Positions 1-64,000 of a stretch of 64,000 bases of DNA are shown here, in pieces (the stretch's first letter is position 1; every line of letters starts with the position of its first letter). Made by a program: the position numbers. Origin of the DNA: Mytilus californianus (lineage: Eukaryota); the NCBI RefSeq assembly GCF_021869535.1, contig NW_026262615.1, positions 9,610,001-9,674,000 on the forward strand, read 5' to 3'.

Positions 1-3000
1 AGGCCAAAGGCTCCTGACTTGGGACAGGCGCAGAAATGCGGCGGGGCTAAACGTGTTTTGTGAGATCTCAACCCTCCCCCTATACCTCTAGCCAATGTGG
101 AATAAAGAAACACACAGCAATACGCACAGTAAAACTCAGTTTAAAAGACGTCCGAGTCCGATGTCAGAATAGGTAACAAAAGAAACTAAGCAAAATGACA
201 ATGATACATACATCAACAAAGGACTACTAGCAGTTACTGACATGCCAGCTCCAGACCTCAATTAAACTGATTGAAAGATTATGTCTTCATCATATGAAAA
301 TCAAGCACAATCCTTCCCGTTAGGGGTTTAGTATCATACTATCATAAAATATATGAGAAGAACATAACCCGTATCATGCCAACAACTGGTTTTAGAATAA
401 ATGTGTTTATTTTTGATGCAAAGACCCTATGAGTGAACCAAAACTAATACCAAAATAGGCCATACGTAATGACCTGACAACAGTATCGTAACTATATTCC
501 TTCTGAATAAGTCTGTTTAAAGGTTTGGTTAGCTTTTGAGGTGAATGCCGACATTGTTGTTATTTGTAAAGAATATTACCATACAAGATTTGATGTGCAA
601 TACCTGAATGTATAAGATGTCTGCATGTTGATTTATATTTACGAATGATGTCCTTGTACCGATGATAAAATTTACTAAATTTTTTTACTAGTTTGTGATA
701 TCGAAAACCCTGGTGTAATATTTTTTCAGTAATACAGAGATTTCTTTCTTTAAATCAAATACGTTGTTACATACATGAGCGAATCGAACAAGTTGAGGTA
801 TATAAACACCATAAGATTGTGACAAGGGAATGTCACCATCTAAAAATGGATAATTAACAATAGGAAATGAAAAATCATCTCTTTTATCATAAATGTTAGT
901 ATCAAGCTTCCCATTAAAGATATAGATATCAAGATCCAGGAAAGGACAGTGTTCATTGTTAGTATTAGCTTTATTTAAAATCAGTTCGGCAGGAAAAATC
1001 TCTTTAGTGTACATACTGAGGTCATTATTGAAAGCCAATATATCATCCAAATATCAAAAAGTGTTATTAAATTTTTGAATCAGATGTTGTTTCGACCGGT
1101 CTTTGCTAATTTTAGTCATAAATTGAAACTCATAGCAATACAGAAACAGGTCTGATGTATATATACATTTCAGGTATCAGTCATCCTTATAATTAAAGAA
1201 AAAGATAAGAATGAAAAACTTTTTATTATTTTATACCTAACACTTTCACTAAAATAGCTCATTTAATTTTTATAAAATATTGATAAAATAGTAACTTTGA
1301 CCTGTCGAGAAAAATAGAAATTTGTACCACACATTTTTAATACAGGAATAATTTCATTGGATATATTGCAGCTTGATTAAAACATTTAGTTGATTTTAAA
1401 AAGAGGTAACTCATTTAGGTGTTGTGTAAACTCCCCCTTTTTTAGTGTAAAGTAAAATCCATTATTGAAACAGTTTTCTTACCTTACAGGATAAAATATT
1501 TTAAAAGGCAGAGAAGGTGTCGTATAGTGCCTTATTGTCAATGCTTTTGTCAAGATTCTTGGTGAATACGTTGCCAACACCAGATTTATTCAGAGATAAA
1601 TCTCTCTTTGACCACATGATTCTTATTGGTCAGCCTTTGATGGTGTCAAAGTTCATTGTGCCAAGAGCTCTCTCATCTGCAAAAGATACATAGATATAGA
1701 AAGATGTGGTATGAGTGCCAATGAGACAACTCTCCATCCAAGTCACAATTTGCAAAAGTAAATCCTTATAGGTCATAATACGGTCTTCAACACGGAGCAT
1801 TGACTCACACCGAACAGCAAGCTATAAAGGGCCCTAGAAATGACTGGTGTAAAACCATTCAAACGGGAAAACCAACGGTCTAATCTATATAAAAAACGAG
1901 AATCGAGATTCAAAACATATTTTTTTAAGTCTAAAGGTTGACATTATTTCGCCTTTCATGCAATTCGGAGCTTTTTAGGAATATCAAGTTTTCTTATCTG
2001 AAACTAACATTAAAAATATGATGAAAAAGAAATTAAATTCAGATATTGTTACACATGAAAGAGAGAGATGTTTAACAATTTTTGATGCTAAAAGACAAAC
2101 AAAGTAATGAAACACATTTTTTTATATACTATGCCACTACTTCCATTATTTTTGTACAAGGTGTACTATAAGAATGTTCTAAAAAGTAAAATAACAAACA
2201 TACTGAACACCATGGAAAATTCAAAACAGAAAGTCCCTTATCAAATGACAAAATCAAAATTTCATACACATCAAACGAATAGAAATCGACTGTCATATTC
2301 CTGACTTGGTACAGACATTCCCTTATGTAGGAGATGATGTACCAAGTCAGGAATATGAATGTTGTTGTCCATTCGTTTGATGTGTTTGTGCTTTTGATTT
2401 TGCCATTTGATTATGGGCTTTCCGTTTTGAATTTTCCTCGAAGTTTAGTATTTTGTGATTTAACTTTTTAACCTGGTTTTATAACATATAGGATAACAAA
2501 AAAATATTAAAAAATAGAATACCGAACTTCAGGGTAAATTCAATCAGAGAGAAGTCCAAAAAACCTAATAAAATCAATCACAAATAAATACGGAGCCCAC
2601 GTCATTATTGTGATAAGCATTTATAATTTCGAAATTGAAATCGCTTCGTTTTCACAAACTCTGGTACTGCGATGTTCGCTTCTGTCATGTTCGGGGTATA
2701 TGTCCAAAAACGGAAGATTTTACTTCCACATTTACCAAATTGTCAACAAAACATGCTAAATTGTAACAAAAAGGTTTTTTTAAATTTTTATCACTAAAGT
2801 ATAATATATTCGAATTTCATTCATTTCTCAACTCATACGATATTGAGGGGTATAAAGCGGAGTCTGAAGAAAAAATTATTAAGCCAGGTTTTTTTTTCAA
2901 AGAACGTGTTTTGTTGGCGTCTTTGTCAATAATTTTCCGATTAAATTTTATATTTTGTAAAGTCATCCATATTGCGTTCAACCTTCTTATTTGCCTTTCA

Positions 3001-63000: not shown

Positions 63001-64000
63001 TAATACTCCTCTTTTATCATTTGTCCTACAAACCTTATACTCTAGTGACTCCTTGGATTCCAACAAGTGTAACAATTCATAATTGTCTATTTCCAGTAAC
63101 ATTCCAGTGATCTTTCCAGCCAGGTCTGGGTACATACTTTGGATCAGAGGAAACAAACGTTCTCCCAACATTTGCTTATGTTCCTGTTGGGGGGAGTCAG
63201 CCAACATGGTAGCAGTTAAGGGCAACTGAAAATTGTAAGATTCGCTTGTGTGCATTCTTATTTATCAAAATTTTATTTCTATTTTTCACTAAGTACAAAA
63301 CAGAAACTTAACTAATCCCCTTTGAAGAAACACTTTTATTTGATGTTGTTTATAGTTGAATTACCACGGCTGCATCAATTTTGAAAAGAATTTATCAGTA
63401 TCAAAATAATCATGATAAAATCAATAGAAAAAAATTAATCCAATGACCTGATTCTTTACAATACAAATGCAGTTGACGAGCAGTGGTATTATCTGCCCTA
63501 AATATATGGCATTAAGAATCGATTTTCAATCAGATTGTCACTTGTAGAGAGAGCGAGAGTTGGCCAAAAAACAAACTTTTTAATACCCAATTTATATCTA
63601 CCTGTGTTTCTTTTGTCTGGTGACCTTGCAGTATAGCGACGGCTTCTCGGACCTGTAAAATATATATAACTAACGGTTATGTTGGTCATTAATGAATTTG
63701 TAGAGTTTTCATACAAACATGCAGCAGCATAGAAACATACACTGAACCATGAAAAGAAGGACAACAAACATATGCATCTGCTTTATGATATAAAGTATCG
63801 AGGTGTTCTTTTTGAACAAATAAAACTTTACACAAAGAGTGTTATGCCGTTGCATTAGCATATCTATGTCTACCGTTCGTCACAGGCAAGATAAAACCAT
63901 GAGAATACAGGTACAAACACTCAAAAAGTTTCCTCGTTTTACATATGGTCAATGACGGGGTTCAATTATTATTGAAAATTTTTTTAATCTCTGTTATATT

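What the first reader, a model, noticed from the sequence alone, without database searches (positions are those of the whole stretch)
1483..63652. Higher-order array alternating MLLE module and PABP gene
Seen: in minus-strand order the window reads MLLE module (63.6-60.6 kb), PABP (59.5-43.0 kb), MLLE module (32.6-26.1 kb), pseudo-PABP exon 2 (1.7-1.5 kb). The segments 25840-29050 and 60410-64000 are collinear in exons, introns and 3' flank at an offset of about 34.6-35.0 kb. Inference: the duplicated unit is a PABP + multi-MLLE cassette, so a normally low-copy housekeeping gene is undergoing birth-and-death expansion, possibly with presence/absence variation as known for Mytilus dispensable genes.
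Basis: partly seen in the sequence, partly recalled or inferred. Interest (0 to 1): 0.65.

Follow-up and report, generated by a model that had tools for sequence, protein, structure and literature searches.

The report
Mussel PABP gene with duplicated MLLE exons
A mussel-type poly(A)-binding-protein paralog has had its last two exons copied into in-frame strings of extra MLLE docking domains, one string apparently fused onto the front of the gene and an older second string lying downstream; similar gene models are already in public annotation, so this is a tidy case of exon duplication rather than a new kind of system.

Summary
On the minus strand the window reads MLLE module (63652-60675), complete 11-exon PABP (59570-42961), three-unit MLLE module (32577-26133), and one dead PABP exon 2 (1676-1483). 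Segments 25868-29058 and 60446-64000 are collinear at offsets 34,578-35,122 and 70-80% identity.

Each module is a tandem array of the PABP's last two exons (192-nt A, 51-nt B). All are phase 0 with AG/GT, and internal B exons have gained a CAG|GT donor. The upstream module is probably not a separate gene. Its last exon has lost the stop (TAA>TAC) and runs in frame into PABP exon 1, exactly as in the Mytilus coruscus model P0006 (86-92% identical in 11 of 11 exons). Models from three other Mytilus species show a similar junction.

The downstream module keeps the ancestral stop. It is open, has no indels, and is better conserved than its introns. No start exon was found.

The "second PABP" is a single exon with two stops. 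The duplication is old (non-exonic identity 75%). Presence/absence variation and further cassettes could not be tested. Multi-MLLE proteins are common in databases.

The parts
63602..63652 (-). B63: internal-type 51-nt exon (VREAVAILQGHQTKETQ), the last helix of an MLLE whose A exon lies beyond the window end
   Evidence: AG acceptor and CAG|GT donor, phase 0; 76% aa to P0006 residues 364-384
63034..63225 (-). A63: 192-nt MLLE exon of module 1
   Evidence: Pfam MLLE 91 bits; 92.4% aa to P0006 residues 381-446; AG/GT, phase 0
60675..60779 (-). B60: former terminal PABP-type exon; stop replaced by TAC (Tyr), open for 35 codons to an AGG|GT donor
   Evidence: Alignment with B43 and B26, which have TAA at that codon; 91.7% aa to P0006 residues 445-480, which continue directly into exon 1
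59339..59570 (-). PABP exon 1 (first half of RRM1). An acceptor AG lies at 59571-59572, followed by 13 open codons before the conventional ATG at 59531-59529
   Evidence: P0006 residues 481-559 align from 59570 at 89.9%
55567..55760 (-). PABP exon 2 (end of RRM1 and start of RRM2; derived VFINYL...NE signature)
54438..54553 (-). PABP exon 3 (RRM2)
53220..53379 (-). PABP exon 4 (start of RRM3)
51868..51942 (-). PABP exon 5 (RRM3 RNP1)
51146..51379 (-). PABP exon 6 (end of RRM3 and start of RRM4)
50265..50471 (-). PABP exon 7 (RRM4)
48174..48339 (-). PABP exon 8 (linker)
47003..47280 (-). PABP exon 9 (linker)
43840..44070 (-). PABP exon 10 (A44): the gene's own MLLE exon
   Evidence: Pfam MLLE 94.1 bits
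42961..43035 (-). PABP exon 11 (B43): terminal exon with TAA stop
32392..32577 (-). A32: module 2, unit 3, MLLE exon. Degenerate: 2-codon deletion, KITRMLLK in place of KITGMLLE
   Evidence: Pfam MLLE 69.8 bits; longest branch among the window's exons in the tree
31076..31126 (-). B31: internal-type 51-nt exon
30265..30456 (-). A30: module 2, unit 2, MLLE exon (an alternative in-frame AAG acceptor lies 39 nt upstream)
   Evidence: Pfam MLLE 92.3 bits
28703..28753 (-). B28: internal-type 51-nt exon, 50 of 51 nt identical to B31
28079..28270 (-). A28: module 2, unit 1, MLLE exon; positional homolog of A63
   Evidence: Pfam MLLE 89.9 bits; collinear block 27615-29058/62568-64000
26133..26210 (-). 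B26: terminal-type exon of module 2 with the ancestral TAA stop; positional homolog of B60
1483..1676 (-). psiE2: dead copy of PABP exon 2 with two in-frame stops; both splice sites kept; usual-type KNL...NK signature

Best explanation
The window is a piece of a mussel (Mytilus-type) cluster of PABP-derived genes.

What the modules are. The 'MLLE modules' are tandem copies of the last two coding exons of a PABP gene. One is a 192-nt exon A encoding most of the MLLE domain. The other is a short exon B encoding its last helix. In internal copies, B is cut to 51 nt by a new CAG|GT donor. Every boundary is phase 0, so A-B-A-B chains splice in frame into strings of MLLE domains (shown).

Module 1 (63652-60675). 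Its terminal B exon has lost the stop codon. It ends at a GT donor in phase 0 and meets an AG acceptor 39 nt upstream of the PABP's ATG. The result is one long reading frame: ...MLLE-MLLE, four RRMs, linker, MLLE. The open frame and splice signals are shown in the sequence. That it is actually spliced this way is inferred from gene models in four Mytilus species. The N-terminal part of that gene lies beyond the window; in relatives it is a weak MIF4G-like region plus a first MLLE.

Module 2 (32577-26133). This is an older paralogous copy with three units. It keeps the ancestral stop and has stayed open and indel-free under selection (shown). It is either an RRM-less tri-MLLE protein or a set of alternative 3' exons of the PABP upstream of it (inferred, undecided).

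The relic. The far exon-2 relic is what remains in this window of the second PABP body.

Likely function (inferred from what is established for the PABPC1 MLLE domain, recalled knowledge). The extra MLLEs multiply the docking sites for PAM2-motif partners such as eRF3, PAN3, Paip, GW182 and Tob on a poly(A)-bound scaffold.
For: 1. Module homology. There are four collinear blocks at 70-80% identity. Between modules, exons are 262/318 = 82.4% identical with 0 gap columns. Non-exonic DNA is 2055/2744 = 74.9% identical, and 622 of its 3366 alignment columns are gaps.

2. Exon anatomy. 21 of 21 listed exons have an AG acceptor, and 19 of 19 non-terminal exons have a GT donor. Phases are consistent from B63 to E11, with one stop at the very end. 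The conventional CDS from the ATG is 1929 nt, giving 642 aa. B63+A63+B60 total 348 nt. Module 2 is 750 nt, giving 249 aa.

3. Two classes of B exon; TAA>TAC in B60.

4. The fused reading is annotated elsewhere. M. coruscus P0006 (1137 aa) threads B63 (76%), A63 (92%), B60 (92%) and E1 from 59570 (90%), then all later exons. The junction peptides match at each boundary. M. edulis P0010, P0011, P0012 and P0021, M. trossulus P0013 and M. galloprovincialis P0016 show a B exon followed by (K)LTTP[YF]SA...M...RRM1. Pfam on P0006, P0011 and P0013 gives 3 MLLE plus 3-4 RRM plus a weak MIF4G.

5. The window's PABP is closest to P0006 in 11 of 11 exons, at 86-92%. It shares [16 protein letters not shown] with the three fused models compared (P0006, P0011, P0013) and not with P0042, P0251 or P0040.

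6. Constraint on module 2. Ka/Ks among A44, A63, A28 and A30 is 0.17-0.40, and 0.31-0.63 for pairs with A32. In 5000 substitution-only neutral simulations per rate, the six exons stayed stop-free in 1.4% at 11.5% change per site.

7. In the tree, A63 sits with MLLE2 of the fused models (support 92/90). The fused models' MLLE1 clade (99/95) has no window member, as expected if that exon lies just past position 64000.
Against: - No transcript data were available. The B60-to-E1 splice rests on predicted gene models, which can chain neighbouring tandem genes. P0012 and P0016 clearly contain repeated PABP parts, which shows that such chaining happens in this family.
- Thirteen open codons upstream of an ATG are not improbable by chance (my estimate is about 0.5).
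- No annotated protein matches the window exactly. Best identities were 83% for A30, 87% for E9 over its full length, and 92% for E1. The window's own locus is therefore either unannotated or from a species not in the database.
- Module 2 has no recognisable start exon and no MIF4G-like or linker exon in the 10 kb upstream.
- A32 has lost the KITGMLLE signature.
- No annotated protein is more than 83% identical to A30.
- A28 and A30 group together in the tree (96/91), although the introns say A28 pairs with A63. Gene conversion or a more complex history is therefore involved.
- Ka/Ks values rest on about 40 synonymous sites per exon.
Confidence: 0.62

Rival explanations
1. MLLE-only genes and PABP genes alternate as separate transcription units. 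The repeat unit is a PABP-plus-module cassette that is actively expanding by birth and death, possibly with presence/absence variation.
For: The two modules are collinear paralogs. A PABP relic lies beyond module 2. Exon divergence is similar for E2 against psiE2 (about 87% identity) and for the module exons (82%), which is compatible with one segmental duplication. RRM-less MLLE models exist, for example M. trossulus P0017.
Against: Module 1 is open in frame into PABP exon 1 after loss of its stop, and it is modelled as one gene in four species. Only one dead exon of a second PABP is present. The copies are old: non-exonic identity is 74.9% and dS is about 0.34. No data on presence/absence exist here. 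A search for Mytilus + presence-absence variation + polyadenylate-binding found 0 papers.
Confidence: 0.15
2. The fused models are prediction artefacts. Module 1 is the 3' end of a separate upstream MIF4G-like/MLLE gene whose last exon simply reads on to the next stop at about 60600. The PABP is then an ordinary 642-aa gene with its own promoter.
For: The B60 frame does run on to a natural stop (ORF 60600-60812). The PABP has a conventional ATG at 59531 and a complete 642-aa frame. M. trossulus P0017 is an RRM-less MIF4G-like/MLLE model. Models P0012 and P0016 show obvious chaining of neighbouring copies.
Against: The same junction appears in models with different naming styles from four species. 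The acceptor is the same, but the donor differs between the M. coruscus type and the M. edulis group. The stop is lost both in the window and in the M. coruscus model at the homologous codon. The phase is 0 on both sides, and a pyrimidine-rich acceptor sits exactly at 59571-59572.
Confidence: 0.2
3. Module 2 is a non-functional relic of the duplication, left behind when its PABP body decayed.
For: No start exon and no upstream MIF4G-like or linker exons were found. A32 is degenerate. dN from A44 is higher to A28 (0.131) and A32 (0.182) than to A63 (0.084). No close annotated ortholog exists; the best is 83%. Its presumed partner exon 2 is dead.
Against: All 6 exons are open, with 6 of 6 acceptors and 5 of 5 donors intact. 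There are 0 gap columns in 318 exonic columns, against 622 gap columns in non-exonic DNA. Only 1.4% of neutral simulations stay stop-free. Ka/Ks is below 1.
Confidence: 0.25
4. The duplication is an assembly artefact, for example an uncollapsed haplotype.
For: None beyond the fact that the window's source assembly is unknown.
Against: The copies are only 70-80% identical, with many indels. Unit numbers and stop states differ between them. The intervening 26 kb holds a complete, different gene body.
Confidence: 0.01

Closest known systems
Mytilus coruscus 'PABPC' model (P0006; the source name carries UniProt id A0A6J8ALZ0), 1137 aa
   Same: Same exon-by-exon architecture over everything the window contains: internal B exon, MLLE, stop-less B exon, a 13-residue bridge, four RRMs, linker, MLLE. 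Identity is 86-92% in 11 of 11 PABP exons, 92% in A63 and 92% in B60.
   Different: It is not identical, so the window is an ortholog in another species or a close paralog. The model's residues 35-278 (weak MIF4G-like, 29.1 bits against a cut-off of 30.8) and its first MLLE have no counterpart inside the window. The model has no counterpart of module 2.
Cytoplasmic poly(A)-binding protein, PABPC1/PABPC4 type
   Same: Four RRMs, a Pro/Gln/Met-rich linker and one C-terminal MLLE split over the last two exons. The conventional frame is 642 aa.
   Different: Extra MLLE-coding exons sit upstream in the same frame. RRM2 carries the derived INYL...NE signature in place of IKNL...NK. A separate three-MLLE exon array lies downstream.
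Ustilago maydis Rrm4, an RNA-binding protein with three C-terminal MLLE domains forming a binding platform (bioRxiv 10.1101/2021.10.25.465676; I saw only the search listing and the start of the abstract)
   Same: RRMs combined with several MLLE domains in one protein; the proposed logic is a multivalent peptide-docking platform.
   Different: It is fungal and unrelated in origin. Here the MLLEs are recent PABPC-type copies made by exon-pair duplication, and in the fused gene two of them are N-terminal to the RRMs. No binding data exist for the mussel protein.
Other annotated multi-MLLE models in marine invertebrates: Octopus vulgaris P0002 (11 MLLE), Patiria miniata P0003 (RING/B-box plus 6 MLLE), Plakobranchus P0007 (3), Haliotis P0018 (2)
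   Same: Tandem MLLE domains of PABPC type. 56 of the 150 best cluster representatives have two or more MLLE stretches (my count from the table).
   Different: These have different partners (a RING domain, or none) and no RRMs in those four models. Their gene structures were not examined.

Membership tests
MLLE / PABC domain (Pfam PF00658) | Profile match above the gathering score | tested here: met
   5 of 5 A-exon ORFs score 69.8-94.1 bits against a cut-off of 27. Each covers profile positions 1-60 of 66; the rest is encoded by the B exon.
MLLE / PABC domain (Pfam PF00658) | Conserved KITGMLLE peptide-binding signature (the motif's role is recalled, not tested) | tested here: met
   Intact in A44, A63, A28 and A30. 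Not met in A32 (KITRMLLK, plus a 2-codon deletion). So 4 of 5 are intact.
Cytoplasmic PABP (PABPC) | Four RRMs followed by a linker and a C-terminal MLLE in one open frame | tested here: met
   RRM_1 hits in 5 of 5 tested exon ORFs. P0006 residues 481-1137 are covered without a gap by 11 exons. The frame is 642 aa with canonical splice sites.
Cytoplasmic PABP (PABPC) | Canonical RNP motifs and poly(A) binding | tested here: inconclusive
   RRM2 RNP2 reads VFINYL instead of VFIKNL, and RRM3 RNP1 reads RGIGFV instead of RGFGFV. Overall the window differs at 11 of 365 positions that are invariant in the comparators, fewer than P0006's 19 unique changes. Binding cannot be tested here.
Mytilus fused 'MIF4G-like + 2 MLLE + PABP' models | In-frame junction from a stop-less B exon into PABP exon 1 | tested here: met
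   TAC in place of TAA. B60 is 105 nt and ends in phase 0 at a GT. An AG lies at 59571-59572, followed by 13 open codons to the ATG. The junction peptides match P0006. That the splice is used is not shown.
Mytilus fused 'MIF4G-like + 2 MLLE + PABP' models | Two upstream MLLE domains and an N-terminal MIF4G-like region | not testable with these tools
   Only B63, A63 and B60 lie inside the window. P0006 residues 35-278 and its first MLLE have no specific match here. The flanks cannot be fetched, because genome contigs holds only bacteria and archaea.
Higher-order tandem array (repeated cassette) | At least two complete repeats of the same multi-part unit at a constant period | tested here: not met
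   The modules repeat at 34.6-35.1 kb, but exon 2 and psiE2 lie 54.1 kb apart. Exon 1 and exons 3-11 of a second PABP are absent from the window.
Mytilus dispensable (presence/absence) genes | The locus is absent in some individuals | not testable with these tools
   No resequencing data were available. 0 papers hold Mytilus + presence-absence variation + polyadenylate-binding. Supplementary tables of pan-genome papers could not be seen.

The most novel reading that the evidence does not exclude
Strings of PABPC-type MLLE domains are a recurrent and so far undescribed protein class in marine invertebrates. They are built again and again by tandem duplication of the phase-0 exon pair that ends every PABP gene. 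In mussels one such string has been captured, through loss of a stop codon, as an N-terminal multivalent PAM2-docking platform on a specialised poly(A)-binding protein. A second string, module 2, is expressed without RRMs as a decoy that soaks up PAM2 partners (release factor, deadenylases, GW182), giving a tunable brake on translation or decay, for instance in oocytes or under stress.
Probability: 0.25. Interest if true: 0.6.

Novelty: new variant of a known kind. Interest (0 to 1): 0.4.

Why it matters
PABP is normally a conservative protein with a single MLLE. Here the sequence shows step by step how a protein-docking domain is multiplied and moved. The last two exons are duplicated in tandem, an internal GT donor turns the terminal exon into a cassette exon, and a single stop-codon change joins the array to the next gene copy.

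If the fused and RRM-less products are expressed, mussels carry poly(A)-binding proteins with three docking sites and possibly free MLLE decoys. That would bear on how translation and deadenylation factors compete for PABP.

For genome annotation, the case warns that tandem PABP copies in bivalves can be chained either truly or artefactually. Transcript evidence is needed to tell which.

The gene models themselves are already public. The gain is in interpretation rather than discovery.

Tried and rejected
- Remnants of a second PABP body. A sensitive blastn (word size 7) of 42900-60446 against 1-25868, and a tblastn of all exon ORFs to E<10, found only psiE2. The other hits were interspersed repeats.
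- A start exon or MIF4G-like/linker exons for module 2 in 32601-42900. None were found.
- The idea that the window's PABP is decaying, because of changes such as RGIGFV and [10 protein letters not shown] control showed it differs at 11 of 365 comparator-invariant positions, while its relative P0006 has 19 unique changes. I dropped the idea.
- The third homolog search, with exon 1, was uninformative. Only 1 of the 120 listed hits (P0006) covers the upstream extension at high identity; two others cover 95-97% of the query at 63% identity; the rest are ordinary PABPs.
- Pfam on 20 other ORFs of the window gave only a THAP hit, a weak alkaline-exonuclease hit, and one sub-threshold chance-level hit.
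- Rfam found nothing.
- The tree of 64-residue MLLE segments resolves little: 13 of 28 inner branches are open.
- Literature: MLLE + Mytilus gave 3 papers, none on this subject. In the one I read passages of, PMC4793324, the mussel PABP is an ordinary 627-aa protein with 4 RRMs plus a PABP domain. Multi/tandem MLLE phrases gave 29 papers; of the 20 listed, those dealing with several MLLE domains in one protein concern fungal Rrm4, and the others are mostly about PABPC1 or UBR5. PABP expansion in bivalves: 0 of the 15 listed papers mention polyadenylate-binding protein. PABP + mollusc + MLLE + paralogs: 0 of the 10 listed papers mention mollusc.
All searches were exon by exon, so no structure or complex prediction of a whole MLLE unit (A plus B) was made.
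The flanks of the window and the orthologous loci of other mussels stayed unchecked.
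Full report
**The window.** It is 64,000 bases with no N and about 32% G+C. All protein relatives named below point to a mussel of the genus Mytilus or very near it. The 14 hits to the poorly conserved linker exon are 12 named Mytilus proteins plus 2 unnamed records. No protein in the database is identical to any exon I searched. The best identities were 83% for A30, 87% for exon 9 over its full length, and 92% for exon 1. The source is therefore a species or paralog that is not annotated there. 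The closest relative throughout is a Mytilus coruscus model, P0006.

**Checking the observation.** A self-comparison by blastn gave 171 HSPs, of which 81 were non-redundant and at least 80 nt. Four same-strand blocks join 25868-29058 to 60446-64000, at offsets of 34,578, 34,657, 35,122 and 34,953 and at 79.6, 75.6, 70.2 and 77.4% identity. E-values run from 1e-44 to 0. The same comparison shows that 27.6-32.6 kb is itself a tandem repeat with a 2.1-2.4 kb period at 71-75% identity. It also shows that 1469-1691 matches 55553-55773 at 87.6%.

Pfam confirmed the domains. All 5 tested MLLE ORFs (at 44, 63, 28, 30 and 32 kb) score 69.8-94.1 bits against a cut-off of 27. All 5 tested RRM-bearing ORFs score 30.8-49.5 bits against 20.7.

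**Anatomy of the units.** Aligning the copies and reading every boundary shows that each MLLE is encoded by two exons.
- Exon A is 192 nt (186 nt in A32). It runs from an AG acceptor to AAG|GT or CAA|GT.
- Exon B begins VQEAV or VREAV and comes in two forms.
- The terminal form of B (B43 in the PABP, B26, B60) continues into the C-terminal tail and 3' flank.
- The internal form of B (B63, B31, B28) is exactly 51 nt and ends in CAG|GTAG, a good donor that the terminal form lacks.
- Every boundary in both modules is phase 0. All 21 exons I list have AG acceptors, and all 19 non-terminal ones have GT donors.

The modules are therefore arrays of the PABP's own last two exons, made spliceable by a new donor inside exon B.

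**The PABP.** Guided by P0006, the gene has 11 coding exons from 59570 to 42961. P0006 residues 481-1137 are covered without a gap. Checked exon by exon, phases are consistent and there is one stop, at the very end. From the ATG at 59531 the frame is 1929 nt, giving 642 aa. Every search was made with a single exon, and lengths were only added as numbers.

**Module 1 belongs to the PABP reading frame.** B43 and B26 have TAA at the homologous codon, while B60 has TAC. The B60 frame stays open for 35 codons to AGG|GTAGAT in phase 0. Exactly at 59571-59572 there is a pyrimidine-rich ttttag acceptor. The 13 codons from there to the ATG are open.

The M. coruscus model P0006 reads precisely this path...VREAVAILQAHQTKETQ | LPLTATML... 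| VQEAVGVLQAN...GNQIR | [14 protein letters not shown]...LYVGDLHPD. It is 76, 92, 92 and 90% identical to B63, A63, B60 and E1 respectively. Models from M. edulis (P0010, P0011, P0012, P0021), M. trossulus (P0013) and M. galloprovincialis (P0016) show the same entry into exon 1 from a B exon, using an earlier donor.

Pfam on these models gives three MLLE and three or four RRM. It also gives a weak MIF4G-like match of 27.6-32.8 bits against a cut-off of 30.8. That the X2/X3 models come from a pipeline that uses transcript evidence is my recollection, not a result here.

The window's PABP is closest to P0006 in 11 of 11 exons. It shares the derived RRM2 signature [16 protein letters not shown] with the three fused models compared (P0006, P0011, P0013). 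P0040, P0042 and P0251 have IKNL or IRNL followed by ...NK. This is therefore a lineage-specific paralog and not the housekeeping PABP.

**Module 2.** Its six exons (32577-26133) add up to 750 nt, giving 249 aa. They are open and end at the ancestral TAA. Against module 1, the exons are 82.4% identical (262/318) with no gap columns. Non-exonic DNA is 74.9% identical (2055/2744), and 622 of its 3366 alignment columns are gaps.

Ka/Ks among A44, A63, A28 and A30 is 0.17-0.40. With A32 it is 0.31-0.63 (only about 40 synonymous sites per exon). In substitution-only simulations the six exons stay stop-free in 13%, 4.2%, 1.4% and 0.4% of 5000 runs at 5, 8, 11.5 and 15% change per site. Selection has therefore kept this array open for most of its history.

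Several points count against a function:
- No start exon, linker exon or MIF4G-like exon was found in the 10 kb upstream.
- A32 has a two-codon deletion and reads KITRMLLK.
- dN from A44 is larger to A28 and A32 than to A63.
- No annotated protein is more than 83% identical to A30.

Because all exons are phase 0, module 2 could be a stand-alone RRM-less protein or a set of alternative 3' exons of the PABP. M. coruscus models P0019 and P0030 do carry two or three C-terminal MLLEs. I cannot decide between these options without transcripts.

**The second PABP.** The copy at 1483-1676 is 194 nt, the same length as exon 2. It keeps AG and GT and has two in-frame stops. It carries the usual KNL...NK signature and is closest to P0039/P0040 (81.8%) and P0042 (79%).

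Nothing else of a PABP lies in 1-25868. The remaining matches there are interspersed repeats shared with PABP introns.

It also starts at exon 2, with a methionine that corresponds to intron sequence (MYIAAERALD). This suggests that a second PABP without exon 1 is an old feature of the cluster. Adjacency in that species could not be checked.

**History.** The simplest reading is an old segmental duplication of module plus PABP that predates the split of the Mytilus species compared. Afterwards the stop was lost in one copy, which created the fused frame, and the PABP body decayed in the other copy.

The signals are not fully clean:
- A28 and A30 are sisters in a 64-column tree (96/91), and B28 and B31 are 50/51 identical. 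Yet the introns pair A28 with A63. This points to gene conversion within module 2.
- The module copies lie 34.6-35.1 kb apart, while E2 and psiE2 lie 54.1 kb apart. The extra distance falls in the 24 kb of repeat-rich DNA between module 2 and the relic.

**Comparison with what is known.** Multi-MLLE models are not rare. Among the 150 best cluster representatives, 56 have two or more MLLE stretches (my count). Named examples include Octopus (11), Patiria (RING plus 6), Plakobranchus (3) and Haliotis (2).

In the searched literature, the papers dealing with several MLLE domains in one protein concern fungal Rrm4, which has three (listing and start of abstracts only). I found no paper on mussel or mollusc multi-MLLE PABPs, and none on presence/absence variation of PABP in Mytilus. 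Supplementary tables could not be seen.

**Verdict.** What is there is a PABP paralog with exon-pair-duplicated MLLE arrays. One array is very probably part of the same gene. The other has been conserved, but its expression is unknown. A single dead exon is all that remains here of a second PABP. I rate it a new variant of a known kind and of moderate interest, because the gene models already exist in public annotation and the architecture recurs in other invertebrates.

Noticed in passing
window 37894-39298: Satellite-like tandem repeat with a 497-bp period, 2.8 copies and 89% matches, in the gap between the PABP 3' end and module 2 (also seen).
   Followed up: no
window 40218-40563, 44232-44382 and 52677-53114: Three shorter tandem arrays: 119 bp x 2.9; 43 bp x 3.5, starting about 160 bp upstream of MLLE exon A44; and 31 bp x 14.2 inside the intron between PABP exons 4 and 5.
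   Followed up: no
window 14091-14549 (-) and 11177-13212 (+): A THAP-domain ORF (28.4 bits, E 2.8e-06) and, on the other strand, a run of ORFs. One of these gives a weak viral alkaline-exonuclease (YqaJ-like) hit (21.6 bits). Together they look like mobile-element remains in the DNA between module 2 and the exon-2 relic.
   Followed up: partly
window 1696-1914, 18484-18967, 33300-34030, 45739-46250, 49297-49590: One interspersed repeat family present in both orientations. One copy abuts the 5' side of the dead exon 2, and two copies sit in PABP introns. A second family recurs at 2180-2470, 22379-22879, 25050-25354 and 36682-37279. Neither was classified.
   Followed up: no
window 691-1053 (-), 21035-22256 (+), 57542-57909 (-): ORFs with a YxDD-like motif and mutual similarity (57542-57899 against 21479-21110, 59.7%). 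They look like reverse-transcriptase fragments; that reading is from memory. Pfam gave no hit at E<=0.01. One of them lies in PABP intron 1.
   Followed up: partly
window 28703-28753 vs 31076-31126: The two internal B exons of module 2 are 50/51 identical, although the surrounding unit DNA is only 71-75% identical. This suggests a short gene-conversion tract.
   Followed up: partly
related proteins P0006, P0017, P0252 (outside the window): The Mytilus MIF4G-like/MLLE models begin with a stretch homologous to PABP linker exon 8. P0252 begins with stretches homologous to exons 8 and 9. The upstream gene part therefore also seems to be built from a partial PABP copy plus a MIF4G-like insert.
   Followed up: partly
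window 25868-26135 vs 60446-60674: The flank after the B26 stop, which is homologous to the read-through part of B60 and the start of the intron leading to exon 1, is 81.4% identical between the copies. That is higher than the intron values of 71-77%. The GTAGAT used as donor after B60 is also present after B43 and B26.
   Followed up: no
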